This document shows, piece by piece, positions 7,833-12,826 of a stretch of DNA of 15,937 nucleotides. The notes under the pieces were generated by a model. It was given only the letters and a program-made list of their open reading frames with translations. It did not search any database and was not told the origin of the DNA. Each line of letters begins with the position of its first letter. The first letter of the stretch is position 1. This DNA comes from a virus (lineage: Duplodnaviria > Heunggongvirae > Uroviricota > Caudoviricetes), in the IMG/VR virus record IMGVR_UViG_2529292909_000010; one strand, 5' to 3'. A program made the position numbers and the translations under genes.

Positions 7833-8255
7833 GTGGCAAAAGTTTTTACACAAGAAGAGCGGGAAAAAATTAAAGGGCAGGTTGTTGAACTCGTACGCCA
7901 GAGTGGGCGCGAGACGTTACGACAACTGGAAACTAAAACTGGGGCAACAAGATATCTGATGAGCGTTCTGGCCAGAGAGCTGGTTGCCAGTGGCGATGTA
8001 TACAATTCTGGCTACGGGTTATTCCCGTCTGAACAGGCTCGTAAAGACTGGCAAAATGCCCGCAAAAAACTCTCAAGGGCAAAGCTGAAGAAACCATCTG
8101 CGGTTGATCCGGACCTTATCTGGTCATTACCAGATGGCGAAATACGCCGCTACGACAGGCGTCTGAACATAATCTGTCTCGAGTGCCGGAAGAGCGAAGT
8201 TATGCAGCGCGTACTGGCGTTTTATCAGGGGAATTTTGAGGAGGTGGTGCGGTGA
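7833..8255 (+). CDS. Hypothetical protein (140 aa), replication-module associated
   Basis: GTG start with strong CAGGAGGG Shine-Dalgarno; lies where a helicase loader would be expected but is too small and shows no Walker motifs. Confidence 0.55.
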   Translation: MAKVFTQEEREKIKGQVVELVRQSGRETLRQLETKTGATRYLMSVLARELVASGDVYNSGYGLFPSEQARKDWQNARKKLSRAKLKKPSAVDPDLIWSLPDGEIRRYDRRLNIICLECRKSEVMQRVLAFYQGNFEEVVR

Positions 8256-8506
8256 GTGAATCAAAATGCCAGGTTAATGGCAACAAGATAGAACCATGTG
8301 CAGCACTGGTAAAGTCCCTTGAGCATGATGCTGAATACACGATGCGAAAAGGTCTGCTGATATACAAAATCTGGAATGAGAGTTTAACTCGCGGTCCTGA
8401 TTTTGTGATGTTGCGTTCCGGTGAATTTTCTAAATTACCAGTTCGGGTTTCATTTTGTCCGTTCTGTGGTGAAAGTCTGAAAACGTGGGAGAACAGAAAT
8501 GAATGA
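8252..8506 (+). CDS. Hypothetical small protein with Cys cluster (84 aa)
   Basis: GTG start overlapping the previous stop (GTGA); C-terminal CPFCGES motif plus upstream cysteines suggest a zinc-ribbon. Confidence 0.45.
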   Translation: MSESKCQVNGNKIEPCAALVKSLEHDAEYTMRKGLLIYKIWNESLTRGPDFVMLRSGEFSKLPVRVSFCPFCGESLKTWENRNE

Positions 8507-8810
8507 AATTAAAGAAATACCAGTAGTACGTGATGAATATGGCTGCTGGACGCATCCTGAATATGAAAAATTCTGTGACGGTCGGGAATATATTTCAACG
8601 GAAGAGTTTAACGCCTGGATGGAGGAAAATAATCTTCAATACGTCCTCTGCTTCAGAGATGAAGGATGTGCTGACCTTGATGCGTGTGATGCTGATATTT
8701 CTGCATGGGAACCGGAACGACCAGAGGGCAATGGATGGTTTATTGGTTCAATACATGACACCGAAGATGGCCCGGTTTGTGTATGGCTGAGAAATAAGGC
8801 CGAAGCATAA
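8499..8810 (+). CDS. Hypothetical acidic protein (103 aa)
   Basis: ATG overlaps the previous stop (translational coupling); protein-like composition. Confidence 0.5.
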   Translation: MNEIKEIPVVRDEYGCWTHPEYEKFCDGREYISTEEFNAWMEENNLQYVLCFRDEGCADLDACDADISAWEPERPEGNGWFIGSIHDTEDGPVCVWLRNKAEA

Positions 8811-9115
8811 AGGCTATAAACCGACTAACAACTAAATACTGAAGATTTAAATCAGAAACGATTTTTATTAAATCCTTAACCGGAGGGATTCTGCACCCTC
8901 AGAACATCAGGAGGCCGTCTGAAAGGGCGGAACAGATAATGCTTACGTTGAAACATTTTATCGACATACCAACATGGTTAGCCGTCATTGCTTTTGTTAA
9001 AATACACATCCACTTTTCTGTGCAATGTTTAACCACTGGTCATATCAAATGGCATTCATGCGAACCATGATATAGAATCATGGCTTGAGAGAGTCGATGA
9101 AAGCGCAACTATGGT

Positions 9116-9694
9116 ATGAGAGACATTGATGTAAGAAAGGCTGTGCATGCCAAGATTCTGAGAGATCATCATAAAGATCCTGACACCCTAATCATTGATG
9201 AGTTTACGATGAATCTAGGGGCTAGCAGAGCTGATATAGCAGTGATCAATGGGCTTATACATGGTTATGAGTTGAAGAGCAAGAGTGATAACTTGCTCAG
9301 ATTACCAGCGCAGGTGCAACATTACTCATCAGTGATGGATAAAGTAACTTTGGTTGTCTCTGATTGCCATCTTTATGATGCTTTAAGCATAGTTCCATCA
9401 TGGTGGGGGATAAAGCAAGTTACGCAAGGTGCACGGCAAGGTATCCATTTAAAAACAATTCGAACTAGCAAGTTGAATCCACAAGTGGACAAACTTTCCT
9501 TAACAATGCTTCTTTGGAAAGATGAATTGCTTTCCCTATTAAGTGATGTAGGGGAGCTACAGAATTTGAAAAATAAACCTAAACGCGTCTTATGGTCAAA
9601 ACTCGCCAATAGTATGGATGTTGGCGAGCTTCGTGAAGCTGTTCGAGTTAAACTTAAAGCCCGTAAAGAGTGGCGAGTTGCTCAACAACCTTAG
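9116..9694 (+). CDS. Putative PD-(D/E)xK-fold nuclease-like protein (192 aa), accessory cargo gene
   Basis: AT-rich ORF; motif arrangement E(IIDEF)...D(RADIAV)...E-x-K(GYELKS) fits a restriction-endonuclease-like active site; may belong to the family usually annotated 'sce7726 family' (unverified recollection). Confidence 0.6.
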   Translation: MRDIDVRKAVHAKILRDHHKDPDTLIIDEFTMNLGASRADIAVINGLIHGYELKSKSDNLLRLPAQVQHYSSVMDKVTLVVSDCHLYDALSIVPSWWGIKQVTQGARQGIHLKTIRTSKLNPQVDKLSLTMLLWKDELLSLLSDVGELQNLKNKPKRVLWSKLANSMDVGELREAVRVKLKARKEWRVAQQP

Positions 9695-10751
9695 TTATGT
9701 GATGGTTTTGCCCAATCCTACGCCATACCTCTGGGCTACCAAATTTATAGTTACCAGAGGGATTGGCTTTGTAGGCTTGATACTCGTTTGCATAATATTC
9801 TATGTCTCTATCTCCCGCACAGAATGTAGGCCCTGAATATTCTCGATGAGCAAGAATATCCTCACTATGTTTACCATATTGTTCATAACCAAAGCGATTA
9901 GCTACTCTTCCTCGAAATACCCAAAAGTCATTATCTCCAGAGTATCTGACGCTGGCAGATACGCTAGGGAATCGCGTCGAAAGCCTATTAAAGTCGGGGT
10001 GCTGTACTCCATAATCACTATAAATCACATTTCTGGCAAGTTCTTTTCTATTCATTAAACTCTGCCATAAAATCCACTCGATTCGAGGTTGAGAATATAG
10101 ACCAACAGAAATATCACTGAGATCTGTAGGAAATGAACCCCCAGAAAGAATCACTTTTCTGTATTCATTGAGGTGCGCCAGATTGTTTATCAATCCCATT
10201 GCCAAAGTATATAGTTCGCCGGAATTAATTTTATCCTCGGTTAACTCATCTCTTAAGTCAATAATTATATCAATATTTGATAAAGGAATTCCCAGATGAT
10301 TAATGTAATGCGTTATTAATTGTGGGTTAACCAGATCTAACGTGGTTAATCTCAAGCATATTTCATTCTGCATTAATTCATCAATCGCTCTTTTATAGTT
10401 AGATGGGCGAGTTGGTGAACTGACAGGAATAACTCTTATCCCCATATCTCTAACTTGATTAACCGCATTTATTATAGGGTAATGATCTTCAGGAGAAATA
10501 AAATGCTCTTCAATTAATAATCCATCAATATAAACACCTTGCATATCTGAGCAAGATTTTGAGACTTTCTTTCCGAACTCTATAAGAGTCTCGTTATAAC
10601 TCTTTAAGGCAATACCTGAATCAGGGTCAATTGGCACTGGTTCAATTTCGAGTAATGGCAAAATTTTTGATTTCTTTTCAATGGATAGCTGCGATAAAGC
10701 TGATAACTCAGAACGTTTCGCTTTCAGAATAGGAATATATGAAATTGTCAT
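9654..10751 (-). CDS. Large uncharacterised partner protein (365 aa), possibly P4 'beta'-family-like
   Basis: AT-rich ORF convergent with the 192-aa gene, 3' ends overlapping by 41 bp; no motif I can assign; the family assignment is an unverified recollection. Confidence 0.6.
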   Translation of the reverse strand: MTISYIPILKAKRSELSALSQLSIEKKSKILPLLEIEPVPIDPDSGIALKSYNETLIEFGKKVSKSCSDMQGVYIDGLLIEEHFISPEDHYPIINAVNQVRDMGIRVIPVSSPTRPSNYKRAIDELMQNEICLRLTTLDLVNPQLITHYINHLGIPLSNIDIIIDLRDELTEDKINSGELYTLAMGLINNLAHLNEYRKVILSGGSFPTDLSDISVGLYSQPRIEWILWQSLMNRKELARNVIYSDYGVQHPDFNRLSTRFPSVSASVRYSGDNDFWVFRGRVANRFGYEQYGKHSEDILAHREYSGPTFCAGDRDIEYYANEYQAYKANPSGNYKFGSPEVWRRIGQNHHITKVVEQLATLYGL

Positions 10752-11103
10752 GTTAATACCTTATACAGAATCAATTAACAATTAATGGTTCTTCGGACAT
10801 TGAAATTTATATCGCAAAAATTGGCAAACTCTCCTCGACTACTCACTTGTGGGTATCCTGGCGTAAAAGGAATGACTTGGCAATACCCGGTGTGATCATA
10901 AGTCATTGAAAATGATCATTTTTATCAGTCTTTCTTCCATGATGAATGCTAATGCCATTTGATTTGTTGAGGTGAAAACTGTTAAAAATCAAAACGATGT
11001 AATTGAAATGAACGTTCGGTAGCATTCACGCTTTAAATGTTTCTTTTGTGCTGATTGGATGAATTTGGGTCACTTCTGATGAGAGATGTTGCAGGAAAAG
11101 AAG

Positions 11104-11132
11104 TTGGCATTGATCTATTGGATAGTTAGAAT
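11104..11132 (+). promoter_or_regulatory. Putative hok mRNA promoter
   Basis: TTGGCA (11104-11109), 17-nt spacer, TAGAAT (11127-11132), just upstream of a leader (gcgggtgcttgaggctatctgcctcaggc) that resembles the remembered 5' end of plasmid R1 hok mRNA. Confidence 0.4.
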
Positions 11133-11308
11133 TGCTGCGGGTGCTTGAGGCTATCTGCCTCAGGCATGAACACCAAAAGGCAGATAGAGAAAAGCCCCAG
11201 TTAACATTACGCGTCCGGCAAGACGCTTAACATTAATCTGAGGCCAATTTCATGCTTTGCACATGTAGGTTAGCCTCTTACGTGCCGAAAGGCAAGGAGA
11301 AGCAGGCT

Positions 11309-11464
11309 ATGAAGCAGCAAAAGGCGATGTTAATCGCCCTGATCGTCATCTGTTTAACCGTCATAGTGACGGCACTGGTAACGAGGAAAGACCTCTGCGA
11401 GGTACGAATCCGAACCGGCCAGACGGAGGTCGCTGTCTTCACAGCTTACGAACCTGAGGAGTAA
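11309..11464 (+). CDS. hokD: Hok/Gef-family type I toxin (51 aa)
   Basis: MKQQKAMLIALIVICLTVIVTALVTRKDLCEVRIRTGQTEVAVFTAYEPEE: single transmembrane helix plus conserved C-terminal region typical of Hok/Gef; AGGAG Shine-Dalgarno before the ATG at 11309; the upstream leader resembles the R1 hok leader. The hokD symbol is from memory of the K-12 sequence and could be another hok paralogue. Confidence 0.85.
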   Translation: MKQQKAMLIALIVICLTVIVTALVTRKDLCEVRIRTGQTEVAVFTAYEPEE

Positions 11465-11476
11465 GAGACCAGGCGG

Positions 11477-11486
11477 GGGAGAATCC
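11477..11486. repeat. Target-site duplication, left copy (GGGAGAATCC)
   Basis: The identical 10-mer directly abuts both ends of the IS element. Confidence 0.55.
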
Positions 11487-12826
11487 CATAAGCGCTAACT
11501 TAAGGGTTGTGGTATTACGCCTGATATGATTTAACGTGCCGATGAATTACTCTCACGATAACTGGTCAGCAATTCTGGCCCATATTGGTAAGCCCGAAGA
11601 ACTGGATACTTCGGCACGTAATGCCGGGGCTCTAACCCGCCGCCGCGAAATTCGTGATGCTGCAACTCTGCTACGTCTGGGGCTGGCTTACGGCCCCGGG
11701 GGAGTGTCATTACGTGAAGTCACTGCATGGGCGTCAGCTCCATGACGTTGCAACATTATCTGACGTGGCTCTCCTGAAGCGGCTGCGGAATGCCGCCGAC
11801 TGGTTTGGCATACTTGCCGCACAAACACTTGCTGTACGCGCCGCAGTTACGGGTTGTACAAGCGGAAAGAGATTGCGTCTTGTCGATGGAACAGCAATCA
11901 GTGCGCCCGGGGGCGGCAGCGCTGAATGGCGACTACATATGGGATATGATCCTCATACCTGTCAGTTCACTGATTTTGAGCTAACCGACAGCAGAGACGC
12001 TGAACGGCTGGACCGATTTGCGCAAACGGCAGACGAGATACGCATTGCTGACCGGGGATTCGGTTCGCGTCCCGAATGTATCCGCTCACTTGCTTTTGGA
12101 GAAGCTGATTATATCGTCCGGGTTCACTGGCGAGGATTGCGCTGGTTAACTGCAGAAGGAATGCGCTTTGACATGATGGGTTTTCTGCGCGGGCTGGATT
12201 GCGGTAAGAACGGTGAAACCACTGTAATGATAGGCAATTCAGGTAATAAAAAAGCCGGAGCTCCCTTTCCGGCACGTCTCATTGCCGTATCACTTCCTCC
12301 CGAAAAAGCATTAATCAGTAAAACCCGACTGCTCAGCGAGAATCGTCGAAAAGGACGAGTAGTTCAGGCGGAAACGCTGGAAGCAGCGGGCCATGTGCTA
12401 TTGCTAACATCATTACCGGAAGATGAATATTCAGCAGAGCAAGTGGCTGATTGTTACCGTCTGCGATGGCAAATTGAACTGGCTTTTAAGCGGCTCAAAA
12501 GTTTGCTGCACCTGGATGCTTTGCGTGCAAAGGAACCTGAACTCGCGAAAGCGTGGATATTTGCTAATCTACTCGCCGCATTTTTAATTGACGACATAAT
12601 CCAGCCATCGCTGGATTTCCCCCCCAGAAGTGCCGGATCCGAAAAGAAGAACTAACTCGTTGTGGAGAATAACAAAAATGGTCATCTGGAGCTTACAGGT
12701 GGCCATTCGTGGGACAGTATCCCTGACAGCCTACAAAACGCAATTGAAGAACGCGAGGCATCGTCTTAACGAGGCACCGAGGCGTCGCATTCTTCAGATG
12801 GTTCAACCCTTAAGTTAGCGCTTATG
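11487..12826 (+). mobile_element. IS186-like insertion sequence (IS4 family), about 1340 bp
   Basis: Terminal inverted repeats cataagcgctaacttaagggttg (11487-11509) and its reverse complement (12804-12826); internal transposase matches the IS186 InsL sequence as I remember it; flanked by a 10-bp direct repeat in GC-rich target DNA. Confidence 0.8.
11542..12655 (+). pseudogene. IS186 transposase, apparently frameshifted (N-terminal about 67 aa in one frame, remaining about 330 aa in another)
   Basis: ORF 11536..11745 encodes the canonical N-terminus (MNYSHDNWSAILAHIGKPEEL...) then terminates; ORF 11654..12655 continues the protein (...QLHDVATLSDVALLKRL...) in a different frame; the junction is near gggcgtcagctcc (about 11731-11743), where one extra base relative to the remembered sequence would account for the shift. 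Confidence 0.5.

What the first reader, a model, noticed from the sequence alone, without database searches (positions are those of the whole stretch)
9116..10751. Convergent AT-rich gene pair (PD-(D/E)xK-like 192-aa protein plus 365-aa partner): candidate uncharacterised anti-phage module
Both ORFs are visibly more AT-rich than the flanking phage genes. They are convergent with 41 bp of 3' overlap and sit exactly between the replication and late-regulatory modules, a classic moron/defence slot in lambdoid prophages. The 192-aa protein shows an E...D...ExK arrangement consistent with a restriction-endonuclease-fold nuclease. From memory only, the pair may correspond to the 'sce7726'/'beta' family pairing related to satellite-phage P4 gop-beta-cII, which has been reported as a defence module in P4 hotspots. 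A lambdoid-prophage, convergent two-gene version without a cII-like third gene would be an undescribed variant.
Basis: partly seen in the sequence, partly recalled or inferred. Interest (0 to 1): 0.85.

Follow-up and report, generated by a model that had tools for sequence, protein, structure and literature searches.

The report
Prophage Beta–cII nuclease gene pair
A Rac-like E. coli prophage carries, in a variable cargo slot, a tail-to-tail overlapping gene pair (a TIM-barrel 'Beta' protein and a restriction-endonuclease-fold 'cII/sce7726' nuclease). These two gene families also occur in two proven but mechanistically unexplained anti-phage systems, so this is a known kind of module in its simplest form, which has not been tested.

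Summary
ORFs 9116-9694(+) and 9654-10751(-) are real, intact, convergent genes with a 41-bp 3' overlap. They lie in a 38% GC cassette between the replication genes and hok/sok and Q of a Rac-like prophage.

The pair is conserved in 77 of 80 genome loci across many phyla and in 77 of 80 viral contigs, and it is always convergent. In 67 of 79 loci, conserved codons of the two genes lie exactly 30 nt apart, so the antisense overlap is old and fixed.

The same pair, with extra genes, forms P4 gop-beta-cII. It also occurs in every PD-lambda-2-type locus I examined, where the nuclease gene is not among the listed components.

My best reading is a two-gene anti-phage or abortive-infection core, with the nuclease as effector and Beta as sensor or regulator. 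Neither the function nor the mechanism has been tested. I class it as a new variant of a known kind, of moderate interest.

The parts
9116..9694 (+). cII-like / sce7726-family PD-(D/E)xK nuclease gene (192 aa). Catalytic codons: E29 9200-9202, D40 9233-9235, E52 9269-9271, K54 9275-9277. The C-terminal part (residues ~126-181) is helical.
9654..10751 (-). Beta-family protein gene (365 aa), an orphan TIM barrel followed by C-terminal helices. The invariant polar residues D76, R115, R134, D165, R223, D246 and R269 sit at or just after the C-terminal ends of beta-strands.
9654..9694 (.). 41-bp antisense overlap of the two 3' ends. It encodes conserved C-terminal residues of both proteins: K181, R183 and W186 of the nuclease, and T353, V355, L359 and L362 of Beta. 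The conserved Trp codon is at 9671-9673 (+) and the conserved His351 codon at 9699-9701 (-).
   Evidence: An overlap is present in 75 of 77 genome loci, and its length is always 2 mod 3. The Trp-to-His codon distance is exactly 30 nt in 67 of 79 loci. No conserved RNA hairpin was found.
9068..9076 (+). Candidate extended -10 promoter element (TGaTATAGA) for the nuclease gene. It overlaps the palindrome CCATGAT-N5-ATCATGG at 9065-9083.
   Evidence: A TGnTATA block is conserved in the otherwise unalignable upstream regions of the related enterobacterial and Aeromonas loci. Palindrome found. The generic promoter scan was not above chance.
8811..11127 (.). The AT-rich cargo cassette that carries the pair. 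It lies between the last conserved early gene (ending at 8810) and the sok/hokD module.
   Evidence: GC 0.38 against 0.48-0.52 in the flanks. Homology to other Rac-like prophages stops before the cassette and resumes at about 11127, and other genomes hold different cargo there.

Best explanation
This is the stand-alone two-gene core of the Beta-cII module family, the same pair found with extra genes in P4 gop-beta-cII and in PD-lambda-2-type loci. It is carried as prophage cargo, most likely to exclude other phages. Shown here: (1) the small protein is an intact PD-(D/E)xK nuclease; (2) the large protein is a TIM barrel with an enzyme-like conserved polar pocket; (3) the two genes are inherited together as a unit in a fixed convergent, overlapping arrangement; (4) they sit in cargo slots of prophages and satellites. 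Inferred: the nuclease is the effector that cuts DNA (phage DNA, or host DNA in abortive infection). Beta, which evolves faster, is the sensor or regulator that holds the nuclease in check until a phage factor is detected. Because the two transcripts must run into each other, expression of each gene limits the other, which would set the ratio of the two proteins.
For: Family membership is established. Beta is a TIM barrel with invariant Asp and Arg residues at strand ends. Pairing holds in 77 of 80 genome loci and 77 of 80 viral contigs, always convergent. The two proteins co-diverge (Mantel r 0.82, p 0.001), and Beta is less conserved than the nuclease (32% against 45% mean identity). The overlap has a fixed phase and a fixed 30-nt codon spacing. 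The contexts are cargo slots: the Rac slot, between lysis and terminase genes in E. coli and Klebsiella prophages, next to an integrase in a Vibrio prophage, a P4-like satellite cargo region beside Abi_2, Fic or HNH genes, and Gordonia phages. Related systems have been shown to defend: gop-beta-cII protects against lambda and P1 (PMC9122126) and is switched to cell killing by a phage accessory gene (bioRxiv 10.1101/2023.04.06.535777); PD-lambda-2 needs its Beta-like C component to defend against lambda vir (PMC9519451). From my memory of the abstract of Ghisotti et al. 1990 (the paper is not held), mutating the cII terminator in P4 gives a temperature-sensitive phenotype that the authors ascribed to reduced beta expression. 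That would be direct precedent for interference between the convergent genes.
Against: No experiment exists for the two-gene form, and neither PADLOC nor PHROGs assigns it a function. In P4 the known toxin is gop, which is absent here. The role of cII in P4 defence is undefined in the papers I could read. The coordinates in Vassallo et al. suggest that their PD-lambda-2 clone could not have held a full cII-like gene, so Beta may act without the nuclease. Beta's fold gives no specific activity. No complex prediction could be run. The promoter scan was not above chance, and no conserved promoter was seen upstream of Beta.
Confidence: 0.5

Rival explanations
1. The pair is an addiction (toxin-antitoxin-like) module. 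The nuclease is a toxin and Beta its antidote, or the reverse, and the module stabilises the prophage or cassette without any role in phage defence.
For: P4 beta was described as the antidote to a toxic partner (cited in PMC9122126). The pair sits next to another addiction module, hok/sok. It spreads as a compact mobile cassette in many kinds of element.
Against: Convergent genes with separate promoters are unlike classical type II toxin-antitoxin operons. Both related multi-gene systems gave phage-resistance phenotypes (PMC9122126, PMC9519451). Toxin-antitoxin behaviour and defence by abortive infection are not mutually exclusive.
Confidence: 0.15
2. The pair works like a restriction-modification system. 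Beta is a TIM-barrel enzyme that modifies host DNA or a nucleotide pool, as the TIM-barrel transglycosylases TGT and DpdA do, and the nuclease cuts unmodified incoming DNA.
Against: The TGT and DpdA matches score no better than dozens of unrelated TIM barrels. From general knowledge, TGT binds zinc through conserved Cys/His residues, and Beta has no invariant Cys. There is no methyltransferase or known modification gene. gop-beta-cII behaves as an abortive-infection system triggered by a phage protein (bioRxiv 10.1101/2023.04.06.535777).
Confidence: 0.1
3. The pair serves the phage itself, either as a nuclease for recombination or repair or in the lysogeny decision, and is not an exclusion function.
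For: The closest structural match is an MmcB-like protein, a family annotated as DNA repair. From memory, P4 cII was named for a clear-plaque phenotype. The pair lies among early and recombination genes in the window and in the Gordonia phages.
Against: The pair is present in only 93 of 5426 E. coli genomes, although the flanking prophage backbone is very common. It occupies unrelated slots in different phages: early region, between lysis and terminase genes, next to an integrase, and satellite cargo. It also occurs outside phages, with HigB-M78 modules, in Patescibacteria and other phyla.
Confidence: 0.1

Closest known systems
P4 satellite gop-beta-cII (Rst_gop_beta_cII; Ghisotti 1990; Rousset 2022, PMC9122126)
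   Same: It contains homologues of both proteins, Beta (PF14350) and cII (sce7726 family). Beta and cII are convergent there too. P4 cII keeps the D...ExK residues (sequence). It is cargo of a mobile element.
   Different: There is no gop here: no gop-sized ORF upstream of Beta and no homologue in any of 160 loci. The proteins are distant, with P4 Beta about 18% and P4 cII about 23% identical to this subfamily, and the PADLOC beta model barely matches (2e-4). P4 cII is 264 aa with an extra C-terminal region. In P4 the genes do not overlap and are separated by a terminator. The host element here is a lambdoid prophage, not a satellite.
PD-lambda-2 (Vassallo 2022, PMC9519451): HigB-like A, Xre-M78 peptidase B, Beta-like C
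   Same: The Beta protein matches PD-Lambda-2_C at 1.8e-41, as strongly as the Beta of true PD-lambda-2-type loci does. All 13 PD-lambda-2-type loci that I examined also carry the convergent, overlapping cII-like nuclease gene.
   Different: Components A and B are absent from the window. The published system lists three genes and no nuclease.
NCBIfam sce7725/sce7726 neighbour pairs
   Same: The 192-aa protein is a full-length member of the sce7726 family. That family is reported next to a partner gene on mobile elements in Pseudomonas and Leptospira (PMC9394441, PMC12457778).
   Different: The partner here is Beta (PF14350). None of seven Beta proteins matched any NCBIfam model, so sce7725 appears to be a different or very distant partner family. 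I did not examine it.
MmcB-like, NucS and Can2-type PD-(D/E)xK nucleases
   Same: Same core fold and catalytic motif.
   Different: There is no sequence-level relationship. The C-terminal helical domain differs, and this family has an obligate TIM-barrel partner.

Membership tests
P4 gop-beta-cII defence system | gop gene (133-aa toxic protein; its sequence looks like a small membrane protein) upstream of beta in the same operon | tested here: not met
   The 10752-11127 region holds only ORFs of 43 aa or fewer. A jackhmmer search with P4 gop found nothing in 80 genome loci or 80 viral loci.
P4 gop-beta-cII defence system | beta homologue | tested here: met
   Pfam Beta_protein 3.8e-52 over the full length. 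It is a distant subfamily: PADLOC beta scores only 2e-4.
P4 gop-beta-cII defence system | cII homologue convergent to beta | tested here: met
   PADLOC cll 2.4e-28. tblastn to P4 cII 9e-6. P4 cII scores 151 bits on sce7726_fam. The P4 gene layout is shown.
P4 gop-beta-cII defence system | protection against phage (lambda, P1) or cell death on a phage trigger | not testable with these tools
   This needs cloning and phage challenge.
PD-lambda-2 | HigB-like component A and Xre-M78 peptidase component B upstream of Beta | tested here: not met
   There are no such ORFs in the window. The models do match true PD-lambda-2-type loci, e.g. L077 at 4e-34 and 2.8e-140.
PD-lambda-2 | Beta-like component C | tested here: met
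   PDLC03983 1.8e-41 and PDLC03984 1.7e-38.
sce7726 family (NF033832) | score above the curated cut-off over the full model | tested here: met
   191 bits against a cut-off of 70, model positions 1-183 of 184.
PD-(D/E)xK nuclease superfamily | restriction-endonuclease-like fold with the D...(D/E)xK catalytic residues | tested here: met
PD-(D/E)xK nuclease superfamily | metal-dependent nuclease activity | not testable with these tools
   This needs a biochemical assay.
Type II toxin-antitoxin system | co-transcribed adjacent toxin and antitoxin genes in which the antitoxin neutralises the toxin | tested here: not met
   The genes are convergent and so cannot be co-transcribed. Neutralisation cannot be tested here.
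Restriction-modification system | a recognisable DNA-modifying enzyme (methyltransferase or similar) paired with the nuclease | tested here: inconclusive
   There is no methyltransferase. Beta is a TIM barrel of unknown activity, and its resemblance to TGT and DpdA is no stronger than to unrelated barrels.

The most novel reading that the evidence does not exclude
Beta-cII is an ancient, self-sufficient two-gene immune core. A TIM-barrel enzyme of a new kind controls, or supplies a signal or substrate to, a PD-(D/E)xK nuclease. The fixed antisense overlap of the two genes is itself part of the switch, because convergent transcription sets the ratio of the two proteins. On this reading gop in P4 and HigB-M78 in PD-lambda-2 are interchangeable add-on effectors or regulators, so two 'unrelated' defence systems would be one family whose nuclease has been overlooked.
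Probability: 0.25. Interest if true: 0.75.

Novelty: new variant of a known kind. Interest (0 to 1): 0.5.

Why it matters
gop-beta-cII and PD-lambda-2 are both experimentally validated anti-phage systems whose mechanisms are unknown, and the literature treats them as unrelated. A 2024 survey calls the gop-beta-cII genes 'unknown function' and restricts the system to Proteobacteria, and it files PD-lambda-2 under HigB and peptidase systems (10.1101/2024.10.26.620412).

This window shows the part they share in isolation: a TIM-barrel protein and a restriction-fold nuclease, locked tail to tail. The pair is widespread. The Beta family has 4324 clusters at 50% identity. Among the best 80 of 450 genome matches, 77 carry the pair, across many phyla. 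184 viral contigs also encode a relative of the nuclease.

The two-gene form is the simplest construct for asking what Beta does and whether the nuclease is the effector. A coding overlap whose phase and spacing have stayed fixed across phyla is also unusual, and it offers a tractable case of gene regulation by convergent transcription.

Tried and rejected
- **Solved structures by sequence:** profile searches for both proteins found nothing meaningful.
- **Fold searches for Beta:** these gave only generic TIM barrels, so I assign no specific enzyme family. The afdb50 library was unavailable.
- **RNA elements:** Rfam found only sok in 8500-11700. RNAalifold on the overlap region of 57 distinct loci found no conserved hairpin or bidirectional terminator.
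- **Promoters and terminators:** the generic scan was at chance level. Alignment upstream of Beta showed no conserved element.
- **A third conserved gene:** clustering of all flanking ORFs found only lineage-specific neighbours, apart from the HigB and Xre-M78 pair in a subset of loci.
- **gop homologues:** none anywhere.
- **Ghisotti 1990:** the paper is not held, so what I say about it rests on citations and on my memory of the abstract.
- **ECOR42 contig holding the original PD-lambda-2:** it could not be fetched. Protein searches of plasmids and phages with the M78 component did not find it.
- **Literature searches:** Pfam accessions and 'Gop_beta_cII' returned nothing useful.
- **Rejected readings:** the ORFs are not chance ORFs or pseudogenes, because they match their family models over the full length and are 99-100% conserved in 93 genomes. 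The pair is not a member of the gop-beta-cII system as defined, because gop is absent.

Full report
**Observation**

The two ORFs exist exactly as described: 9116-9694 on the + strand (192 aa) and 9654-10751 on the - strand (365 aa). They are convergent and share 41 bp at their 3' ends. GC is 0.41 and 0.37 for the two genes and 0.38 for the whole cassette 8811-11127. The flanks are at 0.476 (left) and 0.515 (right).

The window is a Rac-like lambdoid prophage of E. coli. The 2.5-kb region is 99.9-100% identical to the chromosomes of O111, O26 and other Shiga-toxin-producing strains and to phage Rac-SA53. The gene order is YdaS/Cro-like, YdaT, a replication gene, a DUF977/Ren-like gene, two small genes, the pair, sok/hokD, IS421, DUF968, RusA and antiterminator Q. 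So the pair does lie between the replication genes and Q.

The site is a variable cargo slot. Thousands of E. coli genomes match the flanks, but only 93 of 5426 carry the pair. Others carry DUF7167, a SAM methyltransferase, HNH or QueH genes at this position, and homology resumes at about 11127.

**What the two proteins are**

The 192-aa protein is a full-length member of the NCBIfam sce7726 family (191 bits, cut-off 70). It also matches the PADLOC model for cII of the P4 gop-beta-cII system (2.4e-28) and P4 cII itself by tblastn. P4 cII in turn scores 151 bits on the sce7726 model, so the two proteins belong to one family. The protein database labels these proteins PF26915, Phage_P4_cII.

The invariant polar residues D76, R115, R134, D165, R223, D246 and R269 lie at or just after the C-terminal ends of beta-strands. 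TIM-barrel enzymes have their active sites there (inference).

**The pairing is conserved and the overlap is ancient**

A scan of one genome per species found 450 loci encoding a relative of the nuclease, and I analysed the best 80. They come from Proteobacteria, Acidobacteria, Firmicutes, Actinobacteria, Chloroflexi, Myxococcota, Patescibacteria and other groups.

In 77 of the 80, a Beta gene lies immediately downstream and convergent. Two of the exceptions are contig ends. In the third, Beta is replaced by a kinase fragment and a PP2C phosphatase.

The 3' ends overlap in 75 of the 77, by 11-167 nt (median 53), and the overlap length is always 2 mod 3. In 67 of 79 loci the conserved Trp codon of the nuclease (window 9671-9673) and the conserved His codon of Beta (window 9699-9701) are exactly 30 nt apart. 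The overlap is therefore positionally homologous across phyla.

No conserved RNA structure lies in the overlap. The two proteins co-diverge (Mantel r 0.82, p 0.001), and Beta is the less conserved of the two (32% against 45% mean identity).

In IMG/VR, 184 viral contigs encode a relative, and 77 of the best 80 have the convergent Beta. The Beta family is large, with 4324 clusters at 50% identity in 1.84 billion representatives.

**Relation to known systems**

In P4 the order is gop, then beta, then cII on the opposite strand, so beta and cII are convergent there too. The window has no gop. Only ORFs of 43 aa or fewer lie upstream of Beta, and no gop homologue exists in any of the 160 loci.

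Nine of the 77 genome loci carry, upstream of Beta, a HigB-like gene and an Xre-M78 peptidase gene. These match PADLOC PD-Lambda-2_A and PD-Lambda-2_B (4e-34 and 2.8e-140). Several more loci carry the peptidase gene alone.

I then looked up four further homologues of the peptidase. Every one had the layout HigB_toxin, Peptidase_M78, Beta_protein, then a convergent Phage_P4_cII gene with a 50-nt overlap. So PD-lambda-2-type loci contain a fourth gene, a nuclease, that is absent from the published three-gene description (PMC9519451) and from PADLOC. This sample is biased, because the loci were reached through the nuclease or through close relatives of one such locus.

HigB-M78 pairs also occur without Beta, so they are a separable module. 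None of the 80 viral contigs has gop, HigB or the peptidase. In phages the bare pair is the rule.

**Contexts**

Besides the Rac slot, the pair sits in these places:
- between the lysis and terminase genes in other E. coli and Klebsiella prophages;
- next to the integrase of a Vibrio prophage;
- in the cargo region of a P4-like satellite, beside Abi_2, Fic or HNH genes;
- in Gordonia phages.

This is the behaviour of mobile accessory cargo, not of a core phage function.

**Mechanism**

Published work shows three things. gop-beta-cII protects against lambda and P1 (PMC9122126). It is turned into a cell-killing system by a phage accessory gene, orf184 (10.1101/2023.04.06.535777). PD-lambda-2 needs its Beta-like component for defence, though not for neutralising its toxic component (PMC9519451).

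My best reading (confidence about 0.5) is that the pair is a self-contained exclusion or abortive-infection module. The nuclease would be the effector and Beta the sensor or regulator. The forced collision of the two transcripts would couple their expression.

Only the fold, the conserved residues, the linkage and the context are shown. The roles of the two proteins and the regulatory effect of the overlap are inferred.

One caution applies. The coordinates in Vassallo's Table S2 (genes at 229385-232009, clone at 228989-232396 on ECOR42 contig QOYB01000002) leave only 396 bp beyond the end of Beta. A cII-like gene there would be truncated in the clone, so Beta may act without the nuclease. I could not fetch the contig to check.

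The rivals are a pure addiction module, a restriction-modification-like pair in which Beta modifies DNA, and a phage-lifecycle nuclease. None is excluded.

**Novelty and verdict**

Both families are known and named, and RefSeq and the Rac-SA53 record already label these two genes. The two-gene form, however, is not a defined system in PADLOC, and I found no experimental test of it. I also found no paper noting that it is the common core of two validated systems, nor any noting the phase-locked overlap. The paper library is limited, so this absence is not proof.

I class it as a new variant of a known kind, with moderate interest (0.5).

Noticed in passing
L043 5890-9171; L077 3043-6291; L089-L094, L102-L105: PD-lambda-2-type loci (HigB-like, Xre-M78 peptidase, Beta) carry a fourth gene, a convergent cII/sce7726-like nuclease gene that overlaps Beta by about 50 nt. 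It is not part of the published or PADLOC three-gene definition. The coordinates in Vassallo's Table S2 suggest that the tested ECOR42 clone would have truncated such a gene.
   Followed up: partly
window 9671-9701 and the equivalent positions in L004-L083: The conserved Trp codon of the nuclease and the conserved His codon of Beta, on opposite strands, are exactly 30 nt apart in 67 of 79 loci from many phyla, and every overlap length is 2 mod 3. Why this antisense coding overlap is kept is unexplained. No RNA structure was found in it.
   Followed up: partly
window 11139-11464: A sok antisense RNA (Rfam RF01794, 5e-28) and a hokD/mok type I toxin-antitoxin module lie immediately downstream of the cassette. 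Homology to other Rac-like prophages resumes here.
   Followed up: partly
window ~11485-12800: An IS421 (IS4-family) element is inserted just after hokD. Its transposase reading frame appears split, into ORFs 11536-11745 and 11654-12655. Related genomes have IS1, IS3 or IS1203 at nearby but different sites, so the slot is also an insertion hot spot.
   Followed up: no
window 7833-8255: The DUF977 protein just upstream matches PHROG 142, 'Ren-like exclusion protein' (3.8e-47). It may be a second exclusion-type gene in the same region.
   Followed up: no
window 9065-9083: The perfect palindrome CCATGAT-N5-ATCATGG overlaps a TGnTATA extended -10 element. That element is conserved upstream of the nuclease gene in related enterobacterial loci, although the surrounding sequence is not alignable. 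The palindrome may be an operator.
   Followed up: partly
L012 6001-7810 (same contig as L143): In Xenorhabdus koppenhoeferi the nuclease gene is followed, on the same strand, by a Ser/Thr kinase fragment and a PP2C phosphatase instead of Beta. This was the only full-length locus among the 80 genome loci that lacked Beta.
   Followed up: partly
L096-L100 (context of P0034): A 64%-identical copy of the pair sits in the cargo region of a P4-like satellite or integrative element (primase with DUF927, AlpA). The neighbouring genes vary between copies (Abi_2, Fic, HNH). This is a gop-less two-gene version in the same type of element that carries gop-beta-cII.
   Followed up: partly
literature (PMC9394441, PMC12457778): sce7726-family genes are also reported next to 'sce7725 family' genes. 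None of seven Beta proteins matched any NCBIfam model, so sce7725 may be an alternative or very distant partner of the nuclease.
   Followed up: no
L087 3193-4721; L088 3201-4688: HigB plus Xre-M78 peptidase pairs closely related to PD-lambda-2 A and B occur on plasmids without Beta or the nuclease. They appear to be a separable module that attaches to different partner genes.
   Followed up: partly
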